The notes under the pieces: model-generated
What the model saw: the letters and a program-made list of their open reading frames with translations, nothing else
Told to the model about the DNA's origin: nothing
Databases searched by the model: none
IMG/VR virus record: IMGVR_UViG_2724679538_000004
Location: 32,001 to 96,000 of that record
Strand: one strand, 5' to 3'
From: a virus
Taxonomy: Duplodnaviria; Heunggongvirae; Uroviricota; Caudoviricetes
DNA: 64,000 nucleotides
Part shown: one piece after another, positions 5,164 through 50,376 of the stretch
How positions within the stretch are numbered: the stretch's first letter is position 1
How the letters are laid out: each line of letters starts with the position of its first letter
Made by a program: the position numbers and the translations under genes

Positions 5164-6237
5164 ATGGCAAAAGGAAAATCCCCACTGGCACTTGCTCTTA
5201 AAAAGAAAATCGGTAGCAACGATGAAATTCAAAAAGTAACCCATTGGATTGATACAGGCTTTCCCCCGTTAAACAAAGCTATTTCTGGTCGTTACGATGG
5301 TGGTTTCCCATGTGGTCGTATCGTCGAAGTATTTGGTCCTCCAAGTGCAGGGAAAACGTTCCTTGCAACAGCAGCGATGATCTCCGCTCAAAAACAAGAT
5401 GGTCTGGCGGTATTCCTCGATCATGAAAACAGTTTTGACGTTGGCCTGGCTGTAGCCAATGGCCTGAACGCAGATGAGGATGACGGTCAGTGGGTATACA
5501 AGCAGCCAGATACCTTCGAAGACTCTGTAGAGTTGATCGGCACTATTCTTAAATTGGTTCGTGATGAAGAGCTTATCCCTGAATCAGCGCCTATCTGTAT
5601 CGTGGCTGACTCCCTTGCGTCTATGGTTCCGAACTCCAAAGCCGAGAAGTTCGAAAAGATGGCAGAAGGCACTGCCAAAGACAAAGATCAGCTAAACATG
5701 AACGACAATACGGCACTGGCTCGTGCGACGAGTGCGAACTTCCCTACTCTGGCTTTGTGGGCACGCAAATACAACGCCTGCATCATCTTCTTGAATCAGG
5801 TTCGCACAAAAATCGGTGTAATGTTTGGCGACCCTACTACGTCACCAGGCGGCGATTCACCGAAGTTCTACGCTTCTGTACGTATCCGTCTTGGTGCATC
5901 GGTGATGAAGGATGGTAAAGAGAAGATCGGCCAGGACGTAGGCGCAGAGTGCATCAAAAACAAAGTCGCACCACCGTATGGCAAATGTACCTGGAAATTC
6001 TACTTCGATCCTACTCGTGGCCTCGACGTTATCGAATCGCTCGTCGAGTACATGCTGGAAGAAGGATACCTGCCAAAGAACGCCAGCGGGCGAGTTGAAA
6101 TTGGTGACAAGAAATACACCAAATCGCAGATCGTCGAGATGTATCGGGAGAAGCCATTAGCAGAAATCATTTCTGCGTTACAGGCGATAGATGACCGACG
6201 AGAGAAGACATCACCAACAGAAGAACTAGAAGATTAA
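5164..6237 (+). CDS. RecA-family recombinase (UvsX/RecA-like)
   Basis: Walker A GPPSAGKT in GRIVEVFGPPSAGKTF; FLNQVRTKIGVMFGDPTTSPGGDSPKFYASVRIRL closely resembles the RecA L2 region. Confidence 0.85.
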   Translation: MAKGKSPLALALKKKIGSNDEIQKVTHWIDTGFPPLNKAISGRYDGGFPCGRIVEVFGPPSAGKTFLATAAMISAQKQDGLAVFLDHENSFDVGLAVANGLNADEDDGQWVYKQPDTFEDSVELIGTILKLVRDEELIPESAPICIVADSLASMVPNSKAEKFEKMAEGTAKDKDQLNMNDNTALARATSANFPTLALWARKYNACIIFLNQVRTKIGVMFGDPTTSPGGDSPKFYASVRIRLGASVMKDGKEKIGQDVGAECIKNKVAPPYGKCTWKFYFDPTRGLDVIESLVEYMLEEGYLPKNASGRVEIGDKKYTKSQIVEMYREKPLAEIISALQAIDDRREKTSPTEELED

Positions 6238-6242
6238 TTATC

Positions 6243-6267
6243 AGGCGTCCAAACGGACGCCTTTTTT
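6243..6267 (+). terminator. rho-independent terminator (AGGCGTCC-AAAC-GGACGCCT then TTTTTT)
   Basis: Hairpin plus T-run after the recombinase stop; same stem sequence as the terminator at 7384. Confidence 0.7.
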
Positions 6268-6330
6268 GTATGTTGAAAATGTATAAGTACTTACTTATTA
6301 TTAGCACACAATAACCACATAGGAAAACAC

Positions 6331-6531
6331 ATGATCAAACTCTATCTTATGGCAGTAGTTACAGGTCTATCTGTAGTTTTCATCTACTGTTTGCTGGTTC
6401 CGTCGCTGATCTCTGCTAAAAGCGACATTGCCGTAATGCTTGGAATCATCGTTGCTTTTGGTGCTCCTGTGATCGGGTTTATTGCAGGTCGTAAGTTTCT
6501 AAAGTCACTCATCAATTCGAAGGAGAAGTAA
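6331..6531 (+). CDS. small membrane protein (two hydrophobic segments)
   Basis: 66-aa hydrophobic ORF with AGGAAAACAC before the ATG; immediately upstream of the SPFH gene. Confidence 0.5.
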   Translation: MIKLYLMAVVTGLSVVFIYCLLVPSLISAKSDIAVMLGIIVAFGAPVIGFIAGRKFLKSLINSKEK

Positions 6532-6534
6532 GTA

Positions 6535-7365
6535 ATGAAGAAAGGTTTACTGGCAGTGATCGTGGCCGCTGTTTGCACAATGGGTCTTACTGGCTGTGAT
6601 CGCGTAGAGCCAGGATACGTTGGCATCAAGGTAAACAAATTAGGTGAAGACAAAGGGATTGGTGAAGTAGTTGGTGTTGGTCGCCAATGGACAGGTCTTA
6701 ACACCGAACTTTACGTATTCCCGACCTTCAAACAAATGAAGACCTACGACGAGCCGTTCACATTCCAGATGAGTGACGGTACTGCTATTGGTCACAAAAT
6801 TGGCGTTGCGTATCTGGTTAATCGTGACAAGGTAACGACGGTGTTCCAGACCTATCGCAAAGGCGTAGACGATATCACCGAATCAGATCTGCGTCAGAAA
6901 ATTGCCGACTCTCTAAACCGTTTGGCCAGCCGTATGACCACTGACGCATTTATCGACGGTGGTAAGGCACAATTGCTGGACAACGCACTGAAAGATATTC
7001 AGAAAGAGATGTCTCCGGTTGGTATTGAGGTACTGAGCCTGTCATGGGTTGGAAAGCCTGATTACCCAAAAACCGTCATAGAATCTATCAACGCCAAAGT
7101 AACGGCTAACCAGCGTACTCTGCAACGTCAGCAGGAAGTAGAACAACGTAAAGCTGAGGCGAATATGCTGCGTGAACAGGCTAATGGTGAAGCTGATGCT
7201 ATCCGTGCTCGTGCGCAGGCAGAAGCAGACGCCATTCGTCTGCGCGGTGAAGCTCTGCGTCAGAACCCTAACGTTATGGAACTGGAAGCCATCAATAAAT
7301 GGAATGGTCAGTTACCGCAGTACATGACTCAAGGCGCTAACACTCCTTTCATTACAGTGAAATAA
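6535..7365 (+). CDS. SPFH/band-7 domain lipoprotein (HflC/prohibitin-like)
   Basis: Signal peptide with lipobox LTGCD; long Ala/Glu/Arg-rich coiled region EQRKAEANMLREQANGEADAIRARAQAEADAIRLRGEALRQNP typical of SPFH proteins. Confidence 0.7.
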   Translation: MKKGLLAVIVAAVCTMGLTGCDRVEPGYVGIKVNKLGEDKGIGEVVGVGRQWTGLNTELYVFPTFKQMKTYDEPFTFQMSDGTAIGHKIGVAYLVNRDKVTTVFQTYRKGVDDITESDLRQKIADSLNRLASRMTTDAFIDGGKAQLLDNALKDIQKEMSPVGIEVLSLSWVGKPDYPKTVIESINAKVTANQRTLQRQQEVEQRKAEANMLREQANGEADAIRARAQAEADAIRLRGEALRQNPNVMELEAINKWNGQLPQYMTQGANTPFITVK

Positions 7366-7383
7366 CTCTACTTAAGAAGATCA

Positions 7384-7409
7384 GGCGTCCAGTTGGACGC
7401 CGTTTTTTT
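7384..7409 (+). terminator. rho-independent terminator (GGCGTCC-AGTT-GGACGCC then TTTTTTT)
   Basis: Hairpin plus T-run after the stop at 7365. Confidence 0.7.
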
Positions 7410-7461
7410 GTTGTTATTATCACCATCAAGAAAACAATTTGTTTAAAAGGAGAAGTAAACC

Positions 7462-7887
7462 GTGACAGCAATTAAGAAACTCTACGATGCCGCAAACGCA
7501 GCTCTGGATGTTATTGATGATGAAGTATCAAAAGGCTTTCCTGAACCTGATTGGGCGCATCAGCTACGAAACGCTATAGCTGAAATGAGTCCTCCAGAGC
7601 CAACGCCTGACGAGGCTGACTGGCAGCGATTCATCCGTATGTACGCTGAGGAAATCGGACCAACGCCAACGGCGGAACAAGCAATGCTACTGAAATACTT
7701 TAAAGAGGCTGGGGAAGATTTGCCAATCGACGAATCGGCACACTGGTTTCACTGCGCATGGCGCAAGTACGACGTGATCTACACCCGTGGAATGGGCAGT
7801 AAAGATATGGTTGTGTGGCATCTTCTACATATAGATAGAGCCGTTGATAACGTAATCGAAAAGTTCTTCCCTAATGAAGAAGATTGA
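7462..7887 (+). CDS. hypothetical protein
   Basis: 141-aa ORF with AAGGAGAAG RBS, GTG start. Confidence 0.55.
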   Translation: MTAIKKLYDAANAALDVIDDEVSKGFPEPDWAHQLRNAIAEMSPPEPTPDEADWQRFIRMYAEEIGPTPTAEQAMLLKYFKEAGEDLPIDESAHWFHCAWRKYDVIYTRGMGSKDMVVWHLLHIDRAVDNVIEKFFPNEED

Positions 7888-7941
7888 TGCCCTTTTTGGC
7901 GAGAAGATAATAAGTAAGTACAAATCACAAAAGGAAAGCAC

Positions 7942-8217
7942 ATGAAAACTCTGGTTCAAATTTCAGCAAGTTTAGGCTGCGCTACTCACCCAATGTTCAT
8001 CTTGAACTGCGAAGGTCTTGATGAAGGAGAGATTGACGCACTTGTCGACCGTATTCTCATTGAATACACGGGGCATGATGCGAGTAATGTTTTTGTTGAT
8101 AGTAACGGTGTCTACAGATGTAACAGTGATTGCTGGTATAGAGAAGACGTTAAAAACATTAGCGATGAAGATGCAGAGCACCTGGAGCGCATTCTTGGCA
8201 TTCCTACATTGAAGTAA
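7942..8217 (+). CDS. hypothetical protein
   Basis: 91-aa ORF with AAGGAAAGCAC before the ATG. Confidence 0.5.
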   Translation: MKTLVQISASLGCATHPMFILNCEGLDEGEIDALVDRILIEYTGHDASNVFVDSNGVYRCNSDCWYREDVKNISDEDAEHLERILGIPTLK

Positions 8218-8256
8218 ATTTACACTACGATATATATAAGTTAGCATTTACCTATC

Positions 8257-8436
8257 ATGAAGATATATTTAGAAGCCATCTTGCTTATATTATCAACAAT
8301 GTTTGTCTTGGATTGTATGTTTACAGGTGTAATCCGCAGCGTTCTTTCCCCTGTCAACGAAGTAGTAATCAATTCGTTGGCCGTTGTACTCCTCTTCAAT
8401 TCTGCTTTTAAGGTGATTTACGAGGTAGCTGCGTGA
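8257..8436 (+). CDS. small hydrophobic protein (about 59 aa; below the ORF-track size cutoff)
   Basis: ATG 8257; product MKIYLEAILLILSTMFVLDCMF... is predicted two-TM; stop overlaps the GTG start of the next gene. Confidence 0.3.
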   Translation: MKIYLEAILLILSTMFVLDCMFTGVIRSVLSPVNEVVINSLAVVLLFNSAFKVIYEVAA

Positions 8437-8768
8437 AGGCGATAACTTTCTCACTAGTGTTTCTATCATCTTTGGTAATGGCGGATACCTCTGTTTATGA
8501 GTGCGATATGTCAGTTGCCAGTATCAACAAAGGCGCGATCACCAACATCACAAAGGCGCCATATGGCGCAATGGTAGTGGACAGCGGTGACCAGTTTTAC
8601 GTCCTTCGTGATGATCGTGTTTTGTCATCTCCTCATCTTTCGGATCGGAATGGCAAACTGACCGGAGTAGGAGAAGACCACTTCACATACAACAAATACC
8701 AGGGCTTTTATGGCATTCACGCTTCTACAAAAAGCTACCTTTTCGATGACTGCAAGGAGATTGGATAA
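8433..8768 (+). CDS. secreted protein with N-terminal signal peptide
   Basis: MKAITFSLVFLSSLVMA signal-like N-terminus. Confidence 0.5.
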   Translation: MKAITFSLVFLSSLVMADTSVYECDMSVASINKGAITNITKAPYGAMVVDSGDQFYVLRDDRVLSSPHLSDRNGKLTGVGEDHFTYNKYQGFYGIHASTKSYLFDDCKEIG

Positions 8769-39795: not shown

Positions 39796-40090
39796 AATGT
39801 CTGCTTTTTAACCAAACATACCCTCAATACTGCAACATCAGTGTCTTGCGAATCAAGATAGTGTGTATAGATTTTTCATGCAAGTGCATAAGTCTGTGGA
39901 TAACTCAGGAAGGAAAAAGTGACTTCCGCGCACTTTAGGCCGGACAAGGCCTTCGAAAAAGTCAATGGGAAGAAAAAATTTGTTAAAAATAACGTTTGTT
40001 TGAATTGTATATTTTATACCTGTCAATAGTTAGCATCTTATTAACATCTTTTTTAAGAGACAGAGTTTAAAAACATGTCGCTCCAACATA

Positions 40091-40110
40091 TACTGTATGT
40101 ACATACAGTA
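40091..40110 (+). promoter_or_regulatory. LexA operator (SOS box) TACTGTATGTACATACAGTA
   Basis: Perfect CTGT-N8-ACAG palindrome 17 bp upstream of the humD-like start. Confidence 0.85.
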
Positions 40111-40126
40111 TTAAGAGGCGAGTATT

Positions 40127-40516
40127 ATGGGATTCCCATCTCCTGCAGCGGATTATGTTGAAAGCCGTATTTCTCTTGATCGGCAGATAATTAGACATCC
40201 TTCAGCGACCTACTTCCTGCGAGCGGCTGATAGCCATCACCGCGAAGGAATATTGCAGGGGGCGCTGCTGGTGGTCGATTCTTCACTAACTCCGGTTGAT
40301 GGTTCACTGCTTGTATGTGCTATTGATGGGGAATTTCGTGTAAAAAAATACCGTAAGTATCCGCGTCAGTACCTGGAGGATTTAAGAACTGGCAAGAAGG
40401 AAGCATTGCCAAAGGATGACGATGGATGCACTGGCAGTACTGCCGTGTTTGGTGTCATCACTCACATTATCAACGACGCAAGAAGTGGCGAATTTGATGA
40501 TTGTCCTGTGATGTAG
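40127..40516 (+). CDS. humD: UmuD'-like protein (P1 HumD-like; begins at the position equivalent to the UmuD cleavage site)
   Basis: N-terminus MGFPSPAADYVE matches UmuD residues immediately after the Cys24-Gly25 cleavage site; conserved VDGEF(R/T)VKK; preceded by a LexA box; no umuC neighbour. Confidence 0.8.
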   Translation: MGFPSPAADYVESRISLDRQIIRHPSATYFLRAADSHHREGILQGALLVVDSSLTPVDGSLLVCAIDGEFRVKKYRKYPRQYLEDLRTGKKEALPKDDDGCTGSTAVFGVITHIINDARSGEFDDCPVM

Positions 40517-40560
40517 ATAGAAAGCCCTCGTTTGTATGAGGGCTTCTAGGTAAACACAAA

Positions 40561-41304
40561 TCACTGCATGTTGCCGAATTTTTTGTTAAGGCTTTTTCGT
40601 ATTGTCTCTATGGTTTTCTCCCTATCTGAATATAGTTCGCTAACTACATAGTCCATAATCTCAAAAGCACCTTCGATATCTTTGATCCGAACTTCATCAA
40701 ACGTATGACTGCCTGCATTCCCCAAGAACTTTATCGCCAAAAGATTTTGAGCAAGTTTGCTGCCCTCTTCCGGGATTTTTTCGATACGATGGTGCAATCG
40801 GATTGTCTTACCTTTATCATTTTGCGTAGGTATCCCCATAGAGGTAAGGATATTTTCTACAGCGATTCTGATTAGGTTTGCTGCGGCACCTTGCTGCATT
40901 AAAAAAATGGAAAAAGCAGCTTTCAGGGGGCCACTTACTTCATCCGGGCAGTTCTCTGGAATTTGAAAAACATTCAAGGAAGGAACAAAGCAAAGAGGTT
41001 TGTACCATTGATAATATTCGTCTGCCATTTCCTCTGGTTGGTAATCTCTATCCCATCCTGCCTTTCCTACGCAGGCAACCGCTTCGCCACATTTTGCTCG
41101 TGAACATTTGGCCATACAGCTGAAATAGGACTCAGACATATCGTAATCAAACCAATCTTCATTTTGTGCTTTCCTGGTACCTAAAGACTCCTCTTCAACA
41201 AAACTATCTTGCATGATTTCCAGAGTCTTTTGTCCGCAGACCGGACAAGGCCAGTCCACATGTTTATCGCTGTAAAATCGATGGGAAATTTTATGAATAG
41301 CCAT
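40561..41304 (-). CDS. zinc-ribbon protein with C-terminal HEPN/DUF4145-like segment (tentative)
   Basis: N-terminal CPVCG ... CMAKCSRAKCGEAVAC zinc-ribbon pattern; C-terminal LLAIKFLGNAGSHTFDEV resembles the R/K-x-x-G-N-x-x-x-H helix pair of DUF4145-type HEPN domains; only reverse-strand gene in its neighbourhood. Confidence 0.5.
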   Translation of the reverse strand: MAIHKISHRFYSDKHVDWPCPVCGQKTLEIMQDSFVEEESLGTRKAQNEDWFDYDMSESYFSCMAKCSRAKCGEAVACVGKAGWDRDYQPEEMADEYYQWYKPLCFVPSLNVFQIPENCPDEVSGPLKAAFSIFLMQQGAAANLIRIAVENILTSMGIPTQNDKGKTIRLHHRIEKIPEEGSKLAQNLLAIKFLGNAGSHTFDEVRIKDIEGAFEIMDYVVSELYSDREKTIETIRKSLNKKFGNMQ

Positions 41305-41448
41305 TTATTTCGCTCCATGCATATTGGCCGAAATGAGTTCAAACGATACCAATATGAATAATAGATGCGTTACTTTAAGACACTGTGGATTAAATACAAA
41401 GCATGGCTACCAACAGAAGGAACAAAAGATACTGGTTACAAATACCCG

Positions 41449-41514
41449 TAAATAAATTGTTTTCTACCTTTTCTTAATTGTGATAATAAACCACACAAGA
41501 AAACAAATTGTTTA
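41449..41514 (+). promoter_or_regulatory. conserved promoter/operator block (second copy of the 35524-35580 element, ending in AGAAAACAAATTGTTTA)
   Basis: Near-identical to 35524-35580. Confidence 0.5.
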
Positions 41515-41526
41515 GGAGTGGCAAAA

Positions 41527-41826
41527 ATGCTGAACATTACCCAAGCCTACCAGGTGGCATTGATTAGTGCATCTCATACATCAGAGGAAGATGCTCGCCG
41601 ATTCATGATCGCAAGCAATGAGCTGGATTGGGTTTCACAAATTGACGGCGGTTGTATTGTCCACGCCTGGTTACAGGATGATGTCTGGAAAGACAACTTG
41701 CGTCGATATGGTATATCCGAAGGCGCAATTGCTAACATTCAGAAAGTACTTGATGTAGGCTTTGACTCTGTACATTTCGATTGTGGCGCACCGGTCGTTG
41801 AAGGGCTTGAGTGCTGGAACTGGTAA
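41527..41826 (+). CDS. hypothetical protein
   Basis: AGGAG 8 nt before ATG 41527. Confidence 0.5.
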   Translation: MLNITQAYQVALISASHTSEEDARRFMIASNELDWVSQIDGGCIVHAWLQDDVWKDNLRRYGISEGAIANIQKVLDVGFDSVHFDCGAPVVEGLECWNW

Positions 41827-41862
41827 TCCGGCAAACGTTCCATACTATGTAACGGAGAATTT

Positions 41863-42048
41863 ATGCTTAAAGAGGACTCATATCTACTAAAGGCGCTTGA
41901 AATGCGTGGCGTTGAACCTACAGTGAAAAACGCTCACGATATCTACCTTCAGTTTTCACCGGAGCTGAAACGGCTCATAAATCAATACGGGGTTAATGAC
42001 TCAAGTGTTAAAGCAATGATAGATGATGAATTAGACCATCTCATCTAA
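41863..42048 (+). CDS. hypothetical small protein
   Basis: GGAG 6 nt before the ATG; 61 aa. Confidence 0.45.
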   Translation: MLKEDSYLLKALEMRGVEPTVKNAHDIYLQFSPELKRLINQYGVNDSSVKAMIDDELDHLI

Positions 42049-42200
42049 TCGTTTCCTATGATAATGGTTTTCACTTTGAGATTGTTATTTTTCATAGCCA
42101 AAGCTGATGTTTGTGGAAGGTGGATTGATAAACGGATGCGTATTTAGGTTATACAAGTGAGAAAATTGATAATATATAAACGCGATTTTTATGTGATGGA

Positions 42201-42770
42201 ATGGATGTAATGGAAACCCAGAACCAACAAACAAAACCTCTGAATAACATTTATGCGTGGATTCTAGCGTTCATGCCTTTCTTCTTTGCAGTATCGCCGG
42301 AAGAGTATACCAATTACGCTATTATAATTGGGGGTGTAACTACCATCGGTTTGTTAGTAGCTGACAGAATGGCTCTATCGGAGTCTGGCTGTGAACCACC
42401 TTCAATTCTATGGGGGGTATTCCTCCTGCCTGTCTATCTCTGGAAGCGCGCGACTATTACAAAAGGCAGCAGAGTGCCATTTATCATAATCGTTGCGTCG
42501 CTGGCTTGGGTTATCTTCATCGGCATCCCACACAAGGACGAGGTTGCTCTTGAAGAAGCAGCCTGCCCTCTCGTGACAACTATTCTGAAAGAGAATAACG
42601 GTTCGACTGCACCAAAATGTATGAAGGTGACAATAGAGGACAAGGTGACGGATAAGTTCTATAGAGCAACGGCTACACTAGACAATGGTAATGACATTAA
42701 CATTACTCTGGAACTTACCGGCGACAGGAACTTCTACGTCCGTGTTCCAAATGTTTATCTGAACAACTAA
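42201..42770 (+). CDS. integral membrane protein (about 3 TM segments) with C-terminal soluble domain
   Basis: Hydrophobic segments IYAWILAFMPFFFAV, AIIIGGVTTIGLLV, FIIIVASLAWVIFIG. Confidence 0.5.
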   Translation: MDVMETQNQQTKPLNNIYAWILAFMPFFFAVSPEEYTNYAIIIGGVTTIGLLVADRMALSESGCEPPSILWGVFLLPVYLWKRATITKGSRVPFIIIVASLAWVIFIGIPHKDEVALEEAACPLVTTILKENNGSTAPKCMKVTIEDKVTDKFYRATATLDNGNDINITLELTGDRNFYVRVPNVYLNN

Positions 42771-42889
42771 CGGTTGCAACTTATTGATAATGGCGGTCAC
42801 AATTTGATTCTTTTCTATAAGAATCCGTTGATCGCCACTACTCCCCTTCCATACCTGCAACCACATCCTTAAATATCAATTAGTTATAG

Positions 42890-43766
42890 TTGTTTATACC
42901 AATAAGAAAACAACTAAATAACAGATCAACGAAATGTCAATGCTTTCGCCCGATTTGGTCTATAAAATTGACGTTTTCACACATCACTTCTTATACCCGC
43001 AATCCTACGCAGCAGACAGCGCCACAGCGTCCAATTTTCACCACAGATGACCCAACAACTACCAATAAAAACACACGCTCAAAATCGCTCCCGTTGCGTT
43101 ACACAACCATATAAACAACTTGTTTTCAGGCATAACAAAACAACTAAATAACACATATGCCATTCCCCAAAACAACCAACCTCTTTATGGCAGGCTACCG
43201 AAAAGACCCACCTCTTCTTCCCAGGCTACCGGACAACCAACCTAACTTTCACAGGCAATTCGAAACCTCCATACGCGCGATACCCACGACACGCCATTCC
43301 CCAAATAGCGAAGAACCACCGAAACCCCAACGAAGCTTGTAACCGCAAGGATTTCCTCAATCCCAAAAGACACGAAACAGAACATTCGAGGGAAACGCCA
43401 TTACCCAATACACGAATAACTACAAAAGCCTTTCACGCACTCCATACAAGCAACTCAAACACAATAACGAAAGGAATCGCCCACCTGCCATTACTCCATA
43501 CACGGAGAAGAACAATCACCAAAACGTCGAGAACAACCCAGAGAAGAACCACCGCAAAACGAACGAAACCATATAAACCGACAGAGAGAACTACACACCC
43601 AATTCACCAACAGAAATAGTCGCCGTATAGAACGTTCAGGGAGGAGTGAGTATTAACGCCTATAGAGAGCTTGAGACAGATAAAACACGAAGAAAACACA
43701 ACATGTATAACGGAGAAGCCAGGTATGTATAAGTGGGGAGTGGAGGAGGGGTGTCGCCTCCTTTTT
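42890..43766 (+). ncRNA. A+C-rich, G/T-poor tract with ~100-bp-spaced GCCATT(A/C)CCCAA-type repeats; candidate long non-coding RNA(s) ending at hairpin GGAGG-loop-CCTCC plus T5 (43742-43766)
   Basis: Strong strand-asymmetric composition; promoter-like AAAACAACTAAATAACA at about 42913 and 43138; only low-complexity ORFs without RBS. Confidence 0.3.
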
Positions 43767-43830
43767 CGTATTTATTCAACTCCTGATTTTATCCCCCCGT
43801 AAAACCCCTACGGTCAGCCTTCGGTCCATA

Positions 43831-43970
43831 CAGGGAAAAGGTTGCATCCCGCTACAGAAACGGCTGGGTTGCCTTCGGGGAACGGCTGGAGGTTTTCAGG
43901 GAAACGGTCGAGTTGCCTGTGTGGGTTTCGGGAAAAGGCTCGATGCCGGTTCAGGAACGGTGGCGTACCG
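43831..43970 (+). repeat. array of about six ~21-bp direct repeats with core (C)AGGGAAA(A/C)GG / GGGAACGGCT (GGA-rich)
   Basis: cagggaaaaggttgcatccc, cagaaacggctgggttgcc, ggggaacggctggagg, cagggaaacggtcgagttgcc, cgggaaaaggctcgatgcc, caggaacggtggcgtaccgg. Confidence 0.6.
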
Positions 43971-44295
43971 GTATAGCGAGAGGGAGAGTTGCGGCTACCC
44001 ACCTGTAATGTGCGGGAAGAAGGGAGACTCTCACGTATAGGCGAACCTACTTCCCGCTGGATTCCCTCTGAATGCCCAGCTACAGCGTAATTGTGCCAGA
44101 CAGTCCGCGGGTCACAATCGATTTCAGTAGGTTTTCGGGGAGAGGATTATTCTGCCCACCAGCTCCCTGCGGCCAGTAAATCAGAATAATGTAAAAAGTG
44201 CCCACGGTACTGAACCTGAAAAGTCACTACTAAAACTGCATTTACCGGAATAAAACTCTTTTTCACCTATGTGTTATTGCGATAATAACACCAAC

Positions 44296-44313
44296 GAGAA
44301 AACAAGTTGTTTA
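44296..44313 (+). promoter_or_regulatory. promoter/operator motif GAGAAAACAAGTTGTTTA
   Basis: Palindromic AAACAA-N-TTGTTT core immediately upstream of RBS GGAG. Confidence 0.45.
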
Positions 44314-44323
44314 CGGAGTGGTA

Positions 44324-44635
44324 ATGAATACCTCATTGGTTCTTGGTCTTGCAGAAGGTCAGGACAGAAAAGAAAAGCCAACTTTGATGGGACACCTCAC
44401 ATTGTTGGATATCGTAGCGAACGGAACTTCTATTCGACTGTTTCGTGAAAAAGCTATTACCTTCGACAAAGTGAATTTAACGCGCTATGTGATGGTTGTT
44501 CGTCGCCAGCGAGGAAGAGGGTGGATGTCAGTTCAGAAAATGTGGCCAGAGGACCAGCTTGAACTGGCACTGATGGAAGTGAACCGCGTAGCCCAGCAAG
44601 AAATCCAACGAGCTTCTGTTCAGGCAGTGGCTTAA
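44324..44635 (+). CDS. hypothetical protein
   Basis: GGAG 5 nt before ATG 44324. Confidence 0.5.
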   Translation: MNTSLVLGLAEGQDRKEKPTLMGHLTLLDIVANGTSIRLFREKAITFDKVNLTRYVMVVRRQRGRGWMSVQKMWPEDQLELALMEVNRVAQQEIQRASVQAVA

Positions 44636-44761
44636 GCATGTGCAAGCAGTAGTTAGTCGAGTGTACGACAGCCCTGATTCCTTACAGGGCTTTTTTGTAT
44701 TGTAAGTAACTACTTACAATAATAGAATTACCTCGTTCGTTAACTTACATACAGGGAGAGT

Positions 44762-45160
44762 ATGATGAGCGTAAAACGCGAAAACCTGACAATCGATATG
44801 TACTATGCCTCTGAAAAAGCAGAAGACGAAGCGGTTGCAAAAATTACCGTGATGATTCGTGACAATGAATCTGGTGCAGAGGTACAAACAAGCACTCTTG
44901 TACGCACAGGAACAGGCGAAGAGGCGACTTATGCCGTCGGCTATCAGAATATCAACGATGCCACGGACCCGCTGTTACTTAAACTGGAAAACCACTTCCG
45001 CAGTGTCGATAAGGTGCTTTTTGAGAAGCTGATGGAAGCCGTGGATGAGGTGTATACCTCAAACCTCAACAGCAATACTACCTGGATGGGACAGTATGGC
45101 CTGCGAATTACCACCGGCGCTCAAGTAGAAACCGTCATCCCCGAAAGCGTATTCGCTTAA
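44762..45160 (+). CDS. hypothetical protein
   Basis: GGGAGAG RBS; 132 aa. Confidence 0.5.
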   Translation: MMSVKRENLTIDMYYASEKAEDEAVAKITVMIRDNESGAEVQTSTLVRTGTGEEATYAVGYQNINDATDPLLLKLENHFRSVDKVLFEKLMEAVDEVYTSNLNSNTTWMGQYGLRITTGAQVETVIPESVFA

Positions 45161-45277
45161 TCCTCTTTGAATGGCGCGTAAACCGCGCCATTTTCTTATG
45201 CCCGATAACAATTTGTTTTCTGCCTTATCTGATTTGTGAAAATGATTTCACTGAAGCAACTTAATAAGGAAACCATC

Positions 45278-45652
45278 ATGGAACTTGATATCTATATCGA
45301 GACGCAGCCTAAAAACGATCTGAATAACGAGGAATCCAGAAGACAGGTTGCTTACTTCCGCAAGTTCAATGCGCTCGTTGGGTGGATGGAGCGCAACGTA
45401 GGTGAAGTCGAAAATTGTGAGCTTTTAGAATTAACGATGAATGACATTTGTTTTCTGAAAGCTCATTTGATGCACATAAACGAAAGTAATTGCGAAGAGT
45501 ACTTACCTACACAGGAAGGGTTTTTCTTCGGCAGTCAGGAGTACGATGAAGGTTACTGGCATGACGTGGATAAGCTGAAAAAACTGGTGGAAGACCTGAT
45601 TAGGAACCACGACTTCCACAATAACAGACTGACATTTTGCGCCTGGTGGTAA
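45278..45652 (+). CDS. hypothetical acidic protein
   Basis: AAGGAAA RBS before ATG 45278. Confidence 0.5.
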   Translation: MELDIYIETQPKNDLNNEESRRQVAYFRKFNALVGWMERNVGEVENCELLELTMNDICFLKAHLMHINESNCEEYLPTQEGFFFGSQEYDEGYWHDVDKLKKLVEDLIRNHDFHNNRLTFCAWW

Positions 45653-45989
45653 ATATGGGGGATTTTAGAAAGCGTCTTAAGGAAAGAACTGAGCAGGCCA
45701 GGAGGCAAAACGCGTTTTCTGTTATCCGGTACGCGAAACAATTCAGTCGGAACAACAAGTCAGTTGAGGAAAAGATCCTCAGCGTAATAGGACGATAATT
45801 ATTGAGGCTACCAGCATGGATAGCCTCACTGACTTTTCTTATAACCGAAGGTTAGTTTTGAAACCTGGCTAATGACTTCCAGTACCTGTCTTGATAATTC
45901 AGCCTGCATTAACTTCTTTTCTGCCTTATCTACACTGCGATAATTACACCAACAAGAAAACAACATGTTTACGCAGTGAGGATATGCAC

Positions 45990-46271
45990 ATGACTGATTT
46001 CACCATTACTACCAAAGCACAAAATGTATTCCTTGAATCATGGCTGGACTTGCCGGAAACAGAACAGCAAGAAATGGATCATGTGGAATATGACGAGCAG
46101 GTAAGCACGCGATTCTTCCACTTTGAGGGCTGCGTTTACGATATTGCCGACTTCATGCGAGATGACCGCTTCCCTGAATGGCACGCAAGCTATCCACTTA
46201 ACGCCTTCGCCATGCTGATGATCCGTGTGGATGACTCAGGGGATACCATCGATGTCGGTTTGCTCCACTAA
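45990..46271 (+). CDS. hypothetical acidic small protein
   Basis: GAGGA RBS 8 nt before ATG 45990; 93 aa. Confidence 0.5.
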   Translation: MTDFTITTKAQNVFLESWLDLPETEQQEMDHVEYDEQVSTRFFHFEGCVYDIADFMRDDRFPEWHASYPLNAFAMLMIRVDDSGDTIDVGLLH

Positions 46272-46301
46272 ATAATAAGGGACCACCAGCATTGGTGGCT
46301 C

Positions 46302-46574
46302 TTATATCATTTTTGCGAGCTTATTCATTTTGGTGAAGTCAATTGGCAATTCGGCCAAAGGTATCAAATAGTCTTTTTGTGCCCAGAAGTTTGGAGATCT
46401 GCCCACTACATACGAAAGCCGATAAGCGTCTTCATCGGTAATCGGCTTTCTTTGTTCTAGTATAGCTTCAGCATAGTCGATACTAACCGCCATGCTGCGA
46501 GCCAATAATTCAACCCCAATACCGTAATCGTCATAAATGGCATCAAGAAATTTTTTCACATCAAGTTGGGACAT
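46302..46574 (-). CDS. XRE/HigA-like helix-turn-helix regulator (tentative)
   Basis: GRSPNFWAQKDY resembles the G-x-S-P-x-F-W motif of HigA/VapI-type HTH proteins. Confidence 0.45.
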   Translation of the reverse strand: MSQLDVKKFLDAIYDDYGIGVELLARSMAVSIDYAEAILEQRKPITDEDAYRLSYVVGRSPNFWAQKDYLIPLAELPIDFTKMNKLAKMI

Positions 46575-46769
46575 ATGATTATCTCCTCAAATAAGCCAAG
46601 TTTTTATTATATAACGATATTTTTCGATTGTGGGTAATATGATTACACCCGCAGGCTAAAAACACCAACCTCTTACCTCCAGGCTACCGATTAACCCACC
46701 TGTTCCCGTCCGGCTACCGCAACTTTCCACTTTGACGCCTTATTCGTACAACGATAATTAACACCAACA

Positions 46770-46786
46770 AGAAAACAATTTGTTAT
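46770..46786 (+). promoter_or_regulatory. promoter/operator motif AGAAAACAATTTGTTAT
   Basis: Same element family as 44296, 45204, 45954. Confidence 0.45.
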
Positions 46787-46805
46787 TTACGATAAGGAAT
46801 TAATC

Positions 46806-47288
46806 ATGAATTTTATCGTTACTGTAAACGCACCCGCACATGGCAATATCGCTGTAACGTTCTCTGACATTGAAAAACGAGTACTTGGTGCATGGCGCGA
46901 CAATGAGACGGTAGAACTGTCAGCACAAGAAAAATGCATTATTGCACGCGACATCATTGGTAATCGTCGTTACTCGCGGGTATTTGAGAAAGCGTATGTG
47001 GTAAATTCTGGATTCGGAACGTTCGTCTTTCCGGTGCGCTCCGGGCGATTCTGCCAGTCCAAGCTGATTGAGTTCGCTACGCAGATTTCTGTCTGGATTA
47101 AAACTCAATCGTCGTTCAAATTTTCCGACGATGAAGCAGTATCGCAGGGGATGCGGATCGCCAACAATGCGATAAAATGCAAAAACATTACGTATGCCGC
47201 TGGCGTTGACACATGGAAACTGTTTTGCGCTAACTTTATGCTGAATGTATACGCAAGCAACCGCATCCACATCCTTGATGGCGTGTAA
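46806..47288 (+). CDS. hypothetical protein
   Basis: AAGGAAT RBS; 160 aa. Confidence 0.5.
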   Translation: MNFIVTVNAPAHGNIAVTFSDIEKRVLGAWRDNETVELSAQEKCIIARDIIGNRRYSRVFEKAYVVNSGFGTFVFPVRSGRFCQSKLIEFATQISVWIKTQSSFKFSDDEAVSQGMRIANNAIKCKNITYAAGVDTWKLFCANFMLNVYASNRIHILDGV

Positions 47289-47294
47289 CTGAGA

Positions 47295-47320
47295 AGAGGG
47301 CCAGAAACGGCCCTTTCTCT
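47295..47320 (+). terminator. rho-independent terminator (AGAGGGCC-AGAAAC-GGCCCTTT)
   Basis: Hairpin with T-rich tail after the stop at 47288. Confidence 0.6.
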
Positions 47321-47324
47321 ATAG

Positions 47325-47455
47325 CCACCAGCTGCCGCAGGGAAATTTTCAGAAACGGCGAGGAACGCATTCATGAACCGACGGGAAACGGCCAAGATTT
47401 TTTCGGGAAACGGCTGCATTCGCCTTTATGTAGAAAAACATCGGGAAGCTGGTGG
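47325..47455 (+). repeat. second GGA-rich repeat array (GGGAAATTTTC, AGAAACGGCG, GGGAAACGGCC, GGGAAACGGCT) enclosed by 9-bp inverted repeat CCACCAGCT / AGCTGGTGG
   Basis: Same core motif as the 43831-43970 array; flanking inverted repeat about 110 nt apart. Confidence 0.6.
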
Positions 47456-47880
47456 AATCCAACCAGCGGTTGTCGGACAGGTGAGCGCGGAAAATAATGA
47501 TGACTTTCGTCGCCTGAGACATACAGATTTCTTTCATAGCGTAATCACATACGTGATTAAGTAGTGTGATTATGTGAAAAATCACGCGCACATAATACGC
47601 GAGCGGATAAAGAACAACACAAAATGCCGATCCGCGCCGACAAATAAACGCGGATCACATAGCAAGACTAATAACCAATGATTAGCCATACATTATAACG
47701 CAATATAACGCGATTTAAGCGCGTTAATGTGTTAAGTAATGGGTATGTACTGGTAAGGATGTAAAAGCGCGTCTATGGTGTTATTTTGGCGCTTATTTTT
47801 ATGTTGTTGGAGTGAGTCAAAGACAATAAAAAAACGCGCCATTGATGGCGCGTTATTGTGGAAGTATTGGAAACGAAAAA

Positions 47881-47899
47881 AGCGCCCATAGTGGGCGCT
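47881..47899. terminator. hairpin AGCGCCCATAGTGGGCGCT flanked by A-run and T-run (bidirectional)
   Basis: Identical copy at 48151-48168; lies at the 3' end of the minus-strand gene 47904..48134. Confidence 0.6.
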
Positions 47900-47903
47900 C
47901 GAT

Positions 47904-48134
47904 TTATTTATGTAAACTGATTTCAAATCCCATTTCTACAAACGCTTTCAGCATTAAAAATATATCAGCGTCGTTCACCTCAGCTTTTTTGCGCTCCTGG
48001 TCGCTCAATAAGTCAATTTTGCGCGTCGTTTCATCTATAAGCTCGACTGCGCGCCCAGCGTAACCAGCGATCCCAGCGATCCGATTTACATAATATTCAT
48101 TGTGGACGTTAACGCCAGCGATAAGAATAAACAT
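47904..48134 (-). CDS. hypothetical protein
   Basis: 76-aa ORF bracketed by two copies of the same terminator hairpin. Confidence 0.4.
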   Translation of the reverse strand: MFILIAGVNVHNEYYVNRIAGIAGYAGRAVELIDETTRKIDLLSDQERKKAEVNDADIFLMLKAFVEMGFEISLHK

Positions 48135-48150
48135 GATTAAGCTCCTTAAA

Positions 48151-48168
48151 AGCGCCCATAGTGGGCGC
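48151..48168. terminator. hairpin AGCGCCCATAGTGGGCGC (second copy)
   Basis: Between minus-strand genes 48182..48832 and 47904..48134. Confidence 0.55.
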
Positions 48169-48181
48169 CAGATTCCATTAA

Positions 48182-48832
48182 TTACGCTTTGAAAGCATCA
48201 GCCAGATAGTTATAGAAATCATTTTTAATAAAGCGATATTGCTGCGTACCAGCTTTTGCGCTTCCCATTCCTTTGACTTTCTCAACAAGTCCAAGACGTT
48301 CACAAAGATTAATTAGCTGATTAGCTTGAGTATAGCCAGCGTCAAGTTTAATCTCACACGCTTTTTTAGCTTCATTCATTAAATCGAAAACAGCGCCATT
48401 TGTGAACGTCTCGATCTCGTCGTTAATCATATCGATTAAAGCGAATACACGAGATCCTGACATATCAGCGACGGAATATACACATGTTCCAGCTTTAATA
48501 GATTTAACAAGATAAACCAGCTTTTCCAGTGAATAACTATTAGTCATAGCGTCACGGAAAAATACTTCTGGGGCTTGTTTACTTGCTTTAATCGCATAGT
48601 AGAAAACAGAACATAATTTATCGTCTTCTACTGCGTTAACCACGTTGTTGATGAAGTAAGCAAGCTTAGTGGTCGCAGCTTGCATATTTGCTTTGTCTGC
48701 TTTAGTGTGCGTACCATTTTTATAATGTTCGTTATATGTTTGAGTTGCCAGATCTGCTTTTTCGCGCAGCTCATCGGATACAATGGAAGCAGCTTCAATG
48801 ATGGATTTTTTAGAAATGATAATGTTAGCCAT
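48182..48832 (-). CDS. hypothetical protein (AT-rich codon usage)
   Basis: 216-aa ORF with GGAAAATTATC RBS context. Confidence 0.55.
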   Translation of the reverse strand: MANIIISKKSIIEAASIVSDELREKADLATQTYNEHYKNGTHTKADKANMQAATTKLAYFINNVVNAVEDDKLCSVFYYAIKASKQAPEVFFRDAMTNSYSLEKLVYLVKSIKAGTCVYSVADMSGSRVFALIDMINDEIETFTNGAVFDLMNEAKKACEIKLDAGYTQANQLINLCERLGLVEKVKGMGSAKAGTQQYRFIKNDFYNYLADAFKA

Positions 48833-49115
48833 GATAATTTTCCTTATGTAAATTTAAAATTTATTGTCGTTAGCGTCTTCGCTTTCGACGAGTTCAATTA
48901 TCGATACGCGAAAAAAGATTTCAAGTGTTTTTTTAAATTTTTTTGCAGGGACGAAAGTCCTAGAAATAAAAGCGAGATCGTCGAAGGTGTTCCCTAAATA
49001 AATAATCGATTCCGGCTTTTGACCTTATATATATTTAGGTTATTTAATTTATAGAATATAAAGAAGTGACATGAAAAATAATAACCGGACTTAGCCGGTT
49101 ATTAACCTTATAGAT

Positions 49116-49424
49116 TTATTGGACAGACTCTACAGCCTTACGATTGGTGTCAAATAGCGCATCAACGAACTGTGCCGATGACTCGCTAGATTCGCAATCC
49201 AACATTGCCCGTTCTTCATTTGCCACTTTCTTACACAGTTCCACATTCTCACCTATCGCTTTTCCTGCTTTTACGGCTGCCGAAAATTGATACATGCAAA
49301 CTGATACATTCTGAGACGTTGAGCACACGTCATTCATCAGCGACTGAATGACAGGCTTATAGTCCATTGCATTTGCCGCAACTGAGCAAAGTAAAAATAA
49401 TGGTGGTAACAATATCGATTTCAT
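49116..49424 (-). CDS. small secreted Cys-containing protein
   Basis: Signal peptide MKSILLPPLFLLCSVAANA. Confidence 0.5.
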   Translation of the reverse strand: MKSILLPPLFLLCSVAANAMDYKPVIQSLMNDVCSTSQNVSVCMYQFSAAVKAGKAIGENVELCKKVANEERAMLDCESSESSAQFVDALFDTNRKAVESVQ

Positions 49425-49427
49425 AAC

Positions 49428-49952
49428 TCAAAAAGGCAAAATTCGTTCAACCCAATCGAACAAAACAACTATTTTTCTACCGTTCTCGACACGTAGTGTA
49501 ACCTGACAAGCATCTGCGCCTGCTGACACCCCCTCAATTTCACGGCCATCCGCCATGTACACCCTTATAGATTTGTTTGCTTTATGGGCCTGGTTGCAAA
49601 TTGCAAAAAAATCACGGCGTGATGGCCGATTGTCAACATAATCAGGGTGAACTGTTAATCGACCTTTGAAATCGTGAGCGATACCGTCAACCACACCTGA
49701 TTCAATTGTACTAATGCGTTCAAGTGGAAGCCTTATACGATTTTCTTTGTCAAAAGGGGCTGGGCAAAGATCAACTTTGTTACGAGATGGCATGAGACCA
49801 TAAACGTACATGCAAAACGCCTGGCCATCTTCGAGAGTGGCCCTTACAGGAATTTGTTCTCTGCGCCAGAACATCAGGAGGTTTTCAATATTCTTATAAT
49901 CTCGCGGCCAGACCTCCGCTGGCACGCCGTAGGTGATGTCTTTAGTCGTCAT
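49428..49952 (-). CDS. hypothetical protein
   Basis: ATG at 49952, 4 nt after the lipoprotein stop; the longer track ORF would overlap the upstream gene. Confidence 0.5.
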   Translation of the reverse strand: MTTKDITYGVPAEVWPRDYKNIENLLMFWRREQIPVRATLEDGQAFCMYVYGLMPSRNKVDLCPAPFDKENRIRLPLERISTIESGVVDGIAHDFKGRLTVHPDYVDNRPSRRDFFAICNQAHKANKSIRVYMADGREIEGVSAGADACQVTLRVENGRKIVVLFDWVERILPF

Positions 49953-49956
49953 GTCA

Positions 49957-50376
49957 TTATAAAGTTGTTGGCAATATATCCATTGTACCATCCCAGGTTG
50001 TGAAGACCCGATATGTTTTAGCATCGTTTTGTTTTAGCCTTATTTCTCGCTCCATCCGAGAAGGGTTAAATGCGCAAAGCCCTGAGCTTTCAATTGATGT
50101 GCCAACTATCCACTCACCTTCATTAAGAAAGAAGGTGACTTTTTCTCCTGGTTTCAACTTGGCGGATGTCTCACCATTGATAAAAATGGAGGCATAACAG
50201 CCTGAGCCTACAAGACCTTTGTCTCGAACAATCGTTAATGTTGATACATTTGGCGTCTGGTATTTGAAGATTCTTTCTTGAGGCGCAACTTTCGCTTTTG
50301 AAACTGAGATAGAGGAGGATGAACACCCAATTAGAGAGGCCCCAAACATTAAAATAATGAATTTTGTAGCTTTCAT
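49957..50376 (-). CDS. lipoprotein
   Basis: MKATKFIILMFGASLIGCSSS is a signal peptide with lipobox LIGC. Confidence 0.6.
   Translation of the reverse strand: MKATKFIILMFGASLIGCSSSSISVSKAKVAPQERIFKYQTPNVSTLTIVRDKGLVGSGCYASIFINGETSAKLKPGEKVTFFLNEGEWIVGTSIESSGLCAFNPSRMEREIRLKQNDAKTYRVFTTWDGTMDILPTTL

What the first reader, a model, noticed from the sequence alone, without database searches (positions are those of the whole stretch)
43170..46735. Duplicated ~70-bp segment (CAGGCTACCGA ... CCCACCT ... GGCTACCG) at 43170 and 46665 bounding the accessory cassette
The sequences around 43170-43250 and 46665-46735 align over about 70 bp with roughly three-quarters identity, each containing two AGGCTACCG units about 30 bp apart. 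Each copy lies upstream of one GGA-repeat array, so the accessory region appears built from two related units (repeat - body - GGA array), one with a non-coding A+C-rich body and one with a protein gene (46806..47288). This looks like duplication and divergence of a cis-acting module, or paired recombination sites.
Basis: seen in the sequence. Interest (0 to 1): 0.5.

Follow-up and report, generated by a model that had tools for sequence, protein, structure and literature searches.

The report
Conserved phased repeat boxes, phage-plasmid
The two similar ~90-bp segments are real: they are tandem 30-bp boxes kept in the same two places in the whole SSU5/pHCM2/pMT1 family of phage-plasmids. They most likely work as a binding array next to a promoter rather than as recombination sites, and what binds them is still unknown.

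Summary
Window 43169-43262 and 46659-46746 align far above shuffled background. Each segment is a run of 30-31-nt units, ACC[A/C]ACCTCTT-N5-CAGGCTACCG: three units at site 1, and one half box plus two units at site 2.

The window is an E. coli SSU5-like phage-plasmid. Both sites sit at the same two positions in relatives from Escherichia, Salmonella (pHCM2, phage SSU5), Klebsiella, Enterobacter, Kluyvera and Buttiauxella. Yersinia pMT1 keeps site 2 only. One complete 112-kb relative has no other copy. A relative whose neighbouring gene is only 51% identical still has three units at a 29-nt period.

Site 2 ends 12 nt before the -35 of the promoter of a conserved orphan 160-aa gene, and it stays attached to that promoter whatever lies upstream. 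Site 1 lies inside a conserved 1.5-kb non-coding region with an extreme A+C-rich strand.

Each site lies about 600-650 bp upstream of a GGGAAACGGC repeat array, so the "two related modules" idea holds. The "recombination sites bounding the cassette" idea does not: none of 893 related plasmids shows the deletion product, the units have no dyad core, and the integrase gene is distant.

Best reading, by inference: phased protein-binding boxes. An RNA-level role is the main rival. The binder is unidentified.

The parts
43174..43203 (+). Site 1, unit 1 (AACCAACCTCTTTATGGCAGGCTACCGAAA)
   Evidence: Conserved in relatives as ACCCACCTCTTCCTG[T/C]CAGGCTACCG.
43205..43234 (+). Site 1, unit 2 (GACCCACCTCTTCTTCCCAGGCTACCGGAC), 31 nt after unit 1
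43235..43262 (+). Site 1, unit 3, degenerate (ACCAACCTAACTTTCACAGGCAATTCG). It is degenerate in the same way in all relatives (ACCCACCTAATCTTCCCAGGCAA[T/C]CG).
   Evidence: (D7).
46651..46662 (+). Site 2, leading half box (GCAGGCTAAAAAC). It marks the left edge of family-wide conservation.
46663..46692 (+). Site 2, unit 1 (CACCAACCTCTTACCTCCAGGCTACCGATT), the best-conserved unit in the family
46693..46722 (+). Site 2, unit 2 (AACCCACCTGTTCCCGTCCGGCTACCGCAA). It is weaker in non-E. coli relatives, which carry a 7-nt insertion here.
46732..46760 (+). Sigma-70-like promoter of the 160-aa gene: -35 TTGACG (46732-46737), -10 GATAAT/TAATTA (46753-46760). It is followed by the 5' leader box ACCAACAAGAAAACAA and the palindrome AAACAATTTGTT.
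   Evidence: Read from the sequence. Both hexamers are invariant in 6 relatives while the spacer varies.
46806..47288 (+). Conserved orphan gene (160 aa, phrog_1641), the 'body' of module 2
42771..44317 (+). NC1, a conserved 1.5-kb non-coding region that contains site 1. Its A+C-rich body runs about 42780-43650.
   Evidence: A+C 0.69, z=6.8; no conserved reading frame.
42968..42997 (+). Candidate rightward promoter of the A+C-rich body (TTGACG-18-TATACC). The weak -10 makes it tentative.
   Evidence: Found at the same position in all 6 relatives scanned. Also TTGACA-N17-TTATAC in the divergent L130.
43740..43769 (+). Hairpin closing the A+C-rich body. It has a T-run in E. coli and Klebsiella types.
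   Evidence: 96% of cells paired, 22 of 80 cells G-U, covariation score reached by 12 of 500 shuffles.
43826..43975 (+). GGGAAACGGC-type array 1: six boxes spaced 22, 22, 31 and 22 nt
   Evidence: (D1). No conserved RNA structure.
47334..47420 (+). GGGAAACGGC-type array 2: boxes at 11- and 22-nt steps
   Evidence: (D1).

Best explanation
The two segments are paralogous copies of one cis-acting array of phased boxes. Each unit holds an ACACC[C/A]ACCT half and a CAGGCTAC half, and units repeat every 29-31 bp, about three turns of the DNA helix.

I infer that they act on double-stranded DNA as cooperative binding sites for one still unidentified protein, encoded either by the phage-plasmid or by the host. 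Site 2 would be the upstream regulatory element of the sigma-70 promoter of the conserved 160-aa gene. Its last box ends 12 bp before the -35, and the boxes span roughly -45 to -115. Site 1 would be a second landing pad for the same factor inside the conserved non-coding region NC1. Together the two sites would tie two parallel modules (boxes, about 0.5-kb body, hairpin, GGGAAACGGC array) to one regulator.

Shown: the repeat, its unit structure and phasing, its family-wide conservation at two fixed places, its position next to the promoter, and the absence of recombination products.

Inferred: that the boxes are bound as DNA, that binding controls transcription, and that one factor serves both sites.
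For: - The alignment is far above chance and the unit structure is clear.
- Both sites are kept in orientation and position in E. coli, Salmonella pHCM2, phage SSU5, Klebsiella, Enterobacter, Kluyvera and Buttiauxella. Near-identical 26-mers persist although the surrounding non-coding DNA is only about 68-77% identical.
- The unit blocks are among the best-conserved 10-nt bins of NC1, at 0.81-0.96.
- Only two loci exist in the complete 112-kb relative pCTX.
- The most divergent relative, L130, whose 160-aa protein is 51% identical, still has three units at a 29-nt period in NC1 although the sequence between the boxes has changed. It also has GGCTA boxes in front of the same gene. So phasing and boxes are selected, not just sequence inherited.
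- Site 2 stays fused to the promoter in both known upstream contexts. One is the terminator hairpin of a co-directional gene. The other, in the window, SSU5 and Buttiauxella, is a divergently transcribed HigA/Xre-like gene, where no upstream gene reads into the site. In both, conservation begins just before CCCGCAGGCTAAAAAC.
- Y. pestis pMT1 has lost NC1 but keeps site 2 with its gene.
- The plasmid RepA iterons lie elsewhere and have a different sequence, CCACTATAGAGAG.
Against: - No binding protein is identified. The 160-aa neighbour has no recognisable fold. The adjacent HTH gene is present in only a handful of family members.
- The distance from the best unit of site 2 to the -35 differs by 7 bp between the E. 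coli group and the others, which does not fit strict helical positioning of an activator.
- Site 1 has no convincing promoter just downstream.
- Site 1 lies in a region whose A+C bias persists at non-conserved positions (0.635). That region ends in a hairpin that pairs well only as + strand RNA. Both points suggest a strand-specific, possibly RNA-level, constraint.
- Both sites have the same orientation as transcription.
Confidence: 0.4

Rival explanations
1. The boxes work in RNA. NC1 would be transcribed rightward into a roughly 0.75-kb A+C-rich, G-poor, unstructured non-coding RNA. The units would be single-stranded protein-binding motifs in it. They could be loading or anti-termination signals: C-rich, G-poor stretches are what Rho binds, and CCUCUUAC resembles lambda boxA, CGCUCUUAC. 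Or they could be sites for an oligomeric RNA-binding protein. Site 2 would be the same motif in read-through transcripts entering the 160-aa gene.
For: - The strand bias is extreme (A+C 0.69, z=6.8) and persists at variable alignment columns (0.635).
- No frame is conserved.
- A candidate promoter, TTGACG-18-TATACC, is conserved in every relative, including L130.
- The closing hairpin is 96% paired with 22 of 80 G-U cells, so it pairs well only on the + strand.
- Units are C 0.36-0.43 and G 0.13-0.15.
- Both sites lie in the sense orientation.
Against: - In the window, SSU5 and Buttiauxella, site 2 lies between divergent genes, downstream of a T-run terminator. No known transcript covers it, yet it is intact.
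- The boxA-like CUCUU is not kept in unit 3, in Klebsiella unit 2 or in L130, whereas the CAGGC[T/A] box and the period are.
- No boxB-like hairpin follows.
- The ORF called over site 1 in phage Cyrano is at the floor of RNA-seq signal in the lysogen.
- The -10 of the candidate promoter lacks the conserved final T.
- Rho needs composition, not near-invariant 26-mers.
Confidence: 0.3
2. The two copies are directly repeated sites for site-specific (or efficient homologous) recombination, which lets the 3.4-kb segment between them be excised or exchanged as a cassette.
For: - The copies are direct repeats about 3.5 kb apart.
- The gene content between them differs among relatives.
- The left edge of site 2 coincides with the presence/absence junction of one gene.
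Against: - Among 893 plasmids matching a synthetic deletion junction, none has the two halves adjacent.
- No inverted repeat falls within or between the units.
- The only integrase in the relative pCTX lies about 55 kb away on the circle.
- The variable genes start about 1 kb to the right of site 1. Each carries its own conserved promoter/leader element, which is a better substrate for shuffling (D4, 32).
- The breakpoint seen in large Klebsiella plasmids is an IS insertion elsewhere in the body.
Confidence: 0.05
3. The similarity is a neutral relic of an old segmental duplication and has no present function.
For: - Faint similarity continues past the units into a decayed promoter-like stretch (AACTTTC(C)AC ... 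GCGATA), as expected after duplication of a promoter region.
Against: - Near-identity of the boxes across genera where neighbouring non-coding DNA is 68-77% identical.
- The 29-31-nt period is retained in a lineage where the spacers have diverged.
Confidence: 0.05

Closest known systems
Arrays of operator or activator sites upstream of phage and plasmid promoters (for example the tripartite OR/OL operators of lambda, or helically phased upstream activator sites)
   Same: Several similar boxes in tandem sit immediately upstream of a -35. The same box type is reused at two places in the genome. In SSU5 and in this window, site 2 lies between divergent genes, as OR does.
   Different: The units are direct repeats, not palindromic. 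The period is about three helical turns. No cognate regulator is known, and one copy lies inside a long non-coding region rather than at a recognisable promoter.
Plasmid iterons and incompatibility arrays (P1 oriR/incA, RepFIB)
   Same: Directly repeated, helically phased boxes occur in two clusters separated by a gene-sized segment.
   Different: The family's RepA and its 21-bp iterons (CCACTATAGAGAG) lie about 35 kb away. The period here is 30 bp, there is no AT-rich unwinding element, and pMT1 replicates without site 1.
Lambda nutL/nutR (boxA plus boxB) and rut sites
   Same: Two related short elements occur in the sense orientation on C-rich, G-poor sequence. CCTCTTAC resembles boxA CGCTCTTAC.
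   Different: There is no boxB hairpin, and the boxA-like core is not the conserved part. Site 2 lies upstream of a promoter rather than downstream of one.
T4-type PeSL elements (early promoter plus stem-loop cassettes that flank small variable genes). This comparison is from my own knowledge, not a tool result.
   Different: This comparison applies to the 43-nt promoter repeats, not to the 30-nt units, which occur only twice.

Membership tests
Site-specific recombination sites (att/res/dif type) | Core with inverted recombinase-binding arms around a short spacer | tested here: not met
   The units are direct repeats. No inverted repeat falls within or between them.
Site-specific recombination sites (att/res/dif type) | Recombination products (deletion or hybrid site) in natural relatives | tested here: not met
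   None of 893 matching plasmids has the two halves of the synthetic junction adjacent.
Site-specific recombination sites (att/res/dif type) | Cognate recombinase gene nearby | tested here: not met
   The only integrase in pCTX is at 18.2-19.3 kb, against the region at 73-78 kb.
Replication iterons (Rep_3/RepFIB type) | Repeats match the Rep protein's iteron sequence and flank the rep gene | tested here: not met
   RepA iterons are CCACTATAGAGAG-type with a 21-bp period at the rep gene. No such sequence occurs here.
Replication iterons (Rep_3/RepFIB type) | Needed for plasmid maintenance | tested here: not met
   Y. pestis pMT1 lacks NC1 and site 1 yet is a stable plasmid. This holds for site 1 only.
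Lambda-type nut site | boxA (CGCTCTTA) followed by a boxB hairpin, located downstream of an early promoter | tested here: not met
   The boxA match is only partial (CCTCTTAC) and is not conserved in unit 3, Klebsiella unit 2 or L130. No hairpin follows. Site 2 is upstream of its promoter.
Rho utilisation (rut) site | C-rich, G-poor stretch of 70 nt or more | tested here: met
   Site 1: C 0.36, G 0.15. Site 2: C 0.43, G 0.13. NC1 body: C 0.30, G 0.14. RNA folding of the stretch was not tested.
Rho utilisation (rut) site | Lies in an untranslated transcript and causes Rho-dependent termination | not testable with these tools
   No transcript maps exist. The lysogen RNA-seq is per gene only.
Upstream promoter regulatory array | Fixed position just upstream of a conserved -35/-10 | tested here: met
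   Site 2 ends 12 nt before TTGACG. The promoter hexamers are invariant in 6 relatives. The linkage is kept in both upstream contexts.
Upstream promoter regulatory array | A protein that binds the boxes and changes promoter activity | not testable with these tools
   No candidate was identified. The neighbouring 160-aa protein is an orphan fold.
Known RNA families (Rfam 15) | Match to a curated covariance model | tested here: not met
   An E-value scan of 40000-50000 gave only two chance-level hits near 47820-47900.

The most novel reading that the evidence does not exclude
NC1 encodes an induction-specific, roughly 0.75-kb A/C-rich, G-depleted, unstructured non-coding RNA. Its periodic 30-nt units and other repeated blocks (GCCATTACCC five times, AAGAAAACAA boxes) would load or sequester an RNA-binding machine. 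Candidates are Rho/Nus factors, Hfq, the family's FljA-like regulator, or G/U-rich host sRNAs such as GcvB, by analogy with prophage anti-sRNAs. The same unit in front of the 160-aa gene would couple that gene to the RNA's target. This would be a new kind of long phage-plasmid regulatory or sponge RNA, shared by pHCM2 of S. Typhi and widespread Klebsiella and E. coli phage-plasmids.
Probability: 0.2. Interest if true: 0.75.

Novelty: new member of a known kind. Interest (0 to 1): 0.42.

Why it matters
SSU5/pHCM2/pMT1-type phage-plasmids are common in clinical E. coli, Klebsiella, Salmonella Typhi and Yersinia pestis, and they carry resistance genes. Their regulation is essentially unstudied.

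This work defines a pair of family-wide cis elements that are not annotated in any record examined, and the 1.5-kb conserved non-coding region that holds one of them. It gives exact boxes to mutate and to use as bait. It also separates them from the promoter/leader repeats that more plausibly drive cassette shuffling.

If the boxes turn out to control the lysis-lysogeny or early programme, they would be a handle on induction of these elements.

Tried and rejected
- Rfam E-value scan of 40-50 kb: nothing relevant.
- Coding potential of the A+C-rich body: long stop-free stretches exist in all frames because T and G are rare, but no frame or start codon is conserved.
- RepA iteron hypothesis for the boxes and for the GGGAAACGGC arrays: rejected. 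The iterons are CCACTATAGAGAG and sit at the rep gene.
- Antisense partner for the units anywhere in the window: only the trivial self-antisense. The next best match, site 2 against GGA array 1 (an 8-nt ACCTCCAG/CTGGAGGT match), is not conserved in relatives.
- Conserved RNA structure in GGA array 1: none; the covariation term is unfavourable.
- Hairpin at 42793-42840: conserved, but with no compensatory pairs in close relatives. L130 has a different stem around the same TTTCTATAAG loop.
- The adjacent HigA/Xre-like gene as the binder: it is present only in the window, SSU5, one Enterobacter plasmid and a Buttiauxella contig.
- Homology break at the end of unit 2 in large Klebsiella plasmids: an artefact of BLAST sensitivity. 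The real break is an IS insertion about 300 bp further on.
- Scan of species-representative genomes with a 16-base pattern: mostly chance hits. Only Enterobacterales phage-plasmid contigs carried the full arrangement.
- Literature: no paper found that describes these elements. One 2026 preprint could not be opened.
Full report
IDENTITY OF THE WINDOW. The region 42600-47800 is about 90% identical to Escherichia phage Cyrano (the phage-plasmid pLF82) and to many E. coli plasmids of about 110 kb typed IncFIB. It has weaker matches in Klebsiella, Enterobacter, Salmonella (pHCM2, phage SSU5), Citrobacter, Cronobacter and Yersinia pestis pMT1. The window is therefore part of an SSU5-type phage-plasmid.

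In the relative pCTX (NZ_CP047004), repA and its iterons lie about 35 kb away on the circle. The region studied here sits between a block of small early or accessory genes and an oppositely oriented block that holds an FljA-like regulator and a UvsW-like helicase.

THE OBSERVATION. The local alignment of the two segments scores 50. One thousand dinucleotide shuffles give 16.2 +/- 2.6 and none reach 50. No other part of the window scores above 23 against site 1. The similarity spans 43169-43262 and 46659-46746.

The segments are tandem units of 30-31 nt, ACC[A/C]ACCTCTT-N5-CAGGCTACCG (D3/D5/D7). Site 1 has two good units and a third degenerate one. Site 2 has a leading CAGGCTAAAAAC box, one strong unit and one weaker unit. 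GGCTACCG is about tenfold over-represented in the window.

CONSERVATION. Both sites are found at the same positions and in the same orientation in these relatives:
- Cyrano and pCTX (E. coli)
- pHCM2 of S. Typhi
- phage SSU5
- Klebsiella and Enterobacter phage-plasmids
- Kluyvera and Buttiauxella contigs

Pestis pMT1 has lost the first non-coding region next to IS1541 copies but keeps site 2 with its gene.

The boxes are nearly invariant although the surrounding non-coding DNA is only 68-77% identical. The third, degenerate unit of site 1 is degenerate in the same way everywhere.

The complete plasmid pCTX has no further copy. In the most distant relative recovered, L130, the neighbouring protein is 51% identical. 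Its first non-coding region still carries three units, ACACC...CAGGCA, at an exact 29-nt period, although the sequence between the boxes has changed. GGCTA boxes also precede the same gene. So the boxes and their phasing are under selection.

CONTEXT OF SITE 2. Twelve nucleotides after the last box comes TTGACG, then GATAAT/TAATTA 15-17 nt later. A leader follows with the box ACCAACAAGAAAACAA and a palindrome, then the start of a 160-aa gene. Both promoter hexamers are invariant in six relatives while the spacer between them varies.

The gene belongs to a family restricted to these phage-plasmids. It has no Pfam or NCBIfam match. Its confident AF2 model has no structural neighbour.

Upstream of site 2 there are two arrangements:
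- In most relatives, the terminator hairpin of a co-directional 93-aa gene abuts the site.
- In the window, phage SSU5, a Buttiauxella contig and one Enterobacter plasmid, a 90-aa HigA/Xre-like gene is inserted in the opposite orientation, so site 2 lies between divergent genes.

In both arrangements conservation begins just before CCCGCAGGCTAAAAAC. Site 2 therefore belongs with the promoter on its right.

CONTEXT OF SITE 1. Site 1 lies in a 1.55-kb stretch (42771-44317) that is not annotated in RefSeq records.

Its first 870 nt are the most A+C-rich part of the window (0.69 against 0.50 +/- 0.03). No reading frame or start codon is conserved. The region is a mosaic of conserved 10-70-nt blocks and variable spacers with indels. 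The A+C bias persists at variable columns (0.635).

A candidate rightward promoter, TTGACG-18-TATACC, is present at the same place in every relative, back to back with a leftward TTGACA. The body ends in a hairpin that is 96% paired across eight relatives, with many G-U pairs and modest covariation. These features suggest a rightward non-coding transcript. However, in an LF82 lysogen the ORF called over site 1 is at the floor of the RNA-seq signal (PMC9928086, supplementary table).

THE TWO-MODULE IDEA. A GGGAAACGGC-type array with 11- and 22-nt steps follows each module after a hairpin (43826-43975 and 47334-47420). Such clusters occur only there, both in the window and in the relative pCTX. 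These arrays are not RepA iterons and show no conserved RNA fold.

RECOMBINATION. I built the sequence that unit-by-unit recombination would leave behind and searched 72,556 plasmids with it. Of these, 893 records match, but none has the two halves adjacent. No inverted repeat falls within or between the units, and the integrase gene is far away.

The variable genes begin about 1 kb to the right of site 1. Each has its own 43-nt conserved promoter/leader repeat (D4), which is the likelier substrate for shuffling. A suspected breakpoint at unit 2 in large Klebsiella plasmids proved to be an IS insertion further on. The recombination reading is not supported.

MECHANISM. The evidence fits phased binding boxes best. 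The supporting points are:
- the period of three helical turns
- conservation of the boxes and their spacing
- fixed attachment to a promoter
- survival in a divergent intergenic context where no transcript is expected

I rate this reading at 0.4. The binder is unknown, the distance to the -35 varies by 7 bp between lineages, and site 1 has no clear promoter downstream.

The main rival, at 0.3, is an RNA-level role inside a long A/C-rich transcript, as Rho or Nus loading signals or as sites for another RNA-binding protein. The strand bias, the candidate promoter and the strand-specific hairpin support it. The context of site 2 and the poor conservation of the boxA-like core weaken it.

A neutral relic and recombination sites each get about 0.05.

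NOVELTY. I found no description of these elements in the records or papers searched. They are a new example of a familiar kind of feature, repeated cis-acting boxes. They sit in an unusually composed conserved non-coding region that deserves transcript mapping.

Noticed in passing
window 42771-44317 (body 42780-43650): A conserved 1.5-kb non-coding region. Its + strand is 69% A+C, the extreme of the window (z=6.8), and the bias persists at non-conserved positions. It contains GCCATT[A/C]C[C/T]C four times, a candidate rightward promoter (TTGACG-18-TATACC, -10 at 42992) back to back with a leftward one (TTGACA-16-TTTAGT, -10 at 42918), and a closing hairpin at 43740-43769. It may be an unrecognised long non-coding RNA.
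   Followed up: partly
window 43826-43975 and 47334-47420: Arrays of GGGAAACGGC-type boxes with 11-, 22- and 31-nt steps, present only at these two places in the window and in the relative pCTX, and conserved even in the most divergent relative. They are not RepA iterons. As I recall the CsrB sequence (not checked with a tool), some boxes (ACAGGGAAAAGG, TTCAGGGAAAC) resemble CsrA-binding motifs of CsrB, but no conserved hairpins were found.
   Followed up: partly
window 44278-44320, 45936-45978, 46751-46793 (degenerate copies at 42890 and 43120; also 7422 and 31087): A 43-nt conserved promoter/leader element, TGCGATAATnACACCAACAAGAAAACAAnnTGTTTACG, precedes each small variable gene and is nearly identical across genera. 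It resembles the promoter cassettes that flank shuffled early genes in T4-type phages, and it is the likelier driver of cassette mosaicism.
   Followed up: partly
window 7432, 19144, 29542, 31097, 41501, 43113, 44300, 45206, 45958, 46773, 56719, 56744 and others: The 13-bp palindrome AAACAAnTTGTTT recurs about 15 times across the window, often just after a -10. It looks like the operator of a global repressor.
   Followed up: no
window 49428-50024 (-): The gene annotated 'transcriptional regulator' is an FljA-type protein (Pfam Flag1_repress, E=2.5e-83) with a weak C-terminal Hfq-like match (E=0.005). From my own knowledge, FljA in Salmonella binds an mRNA leader. The A-rich conserved leaders here could be its target.
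   Followed up: no
window 46302-46574 (-): A 90-aa HigA/Xre-like gene inserted between the 93-aa gene's terminator and site 2. It is found otherwise only in phage SSU5 (SSU5_116, 83% identical), one Enterobacter plasmid and a Buttiauxella contig, out of roughly 890 family plasmids.
   Followed up: yes
window 47421-47903; L130 6725-6811: A second non-coding region lies after array 2. It has ATCACA/TGTGAT and ATAACGC repeats and convergent terminators at 47833-47899. A 12-bp inverted repeat (47325-47336 and 47444-47455) carries Chi in both orientations and brackets array 2. The divergent relative L130 has about ten tandem 8-bp CTAAAnnG units here.
   Followed up: no
L003 (NZ_MN543571) 8001-8744; L006 1-6662: In Klebsiella phage-plasmids, a type I restriction-modification system and a DUF262 gene lie directly upstream of the non-coding region. 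Large IncFIB/IncHI1B Klebsiella plasmids carry this block plus an IS-truncated piece of the A+C-rich body, which includes site 1.
   Followed up: partly
L005 (Y. pestis pMT1) 5821-8641: pMT1 lacks the whole first non-coding region and the small-gene block. IS1541 copies flank the retained segment of the 93-aa gene, site 2 and the 160-aa gene. The first region is therefore dispensable for plasmid maintenance.
   Followed up: partly
window 43989-44005: GCGGCTACCCACCTGT joins the two halves of the unit (GGCTACC + CACCT) without the spacer, just after array 1. Only CACCTG is conserved in relatives, so this may be chance.
   Followed up: no
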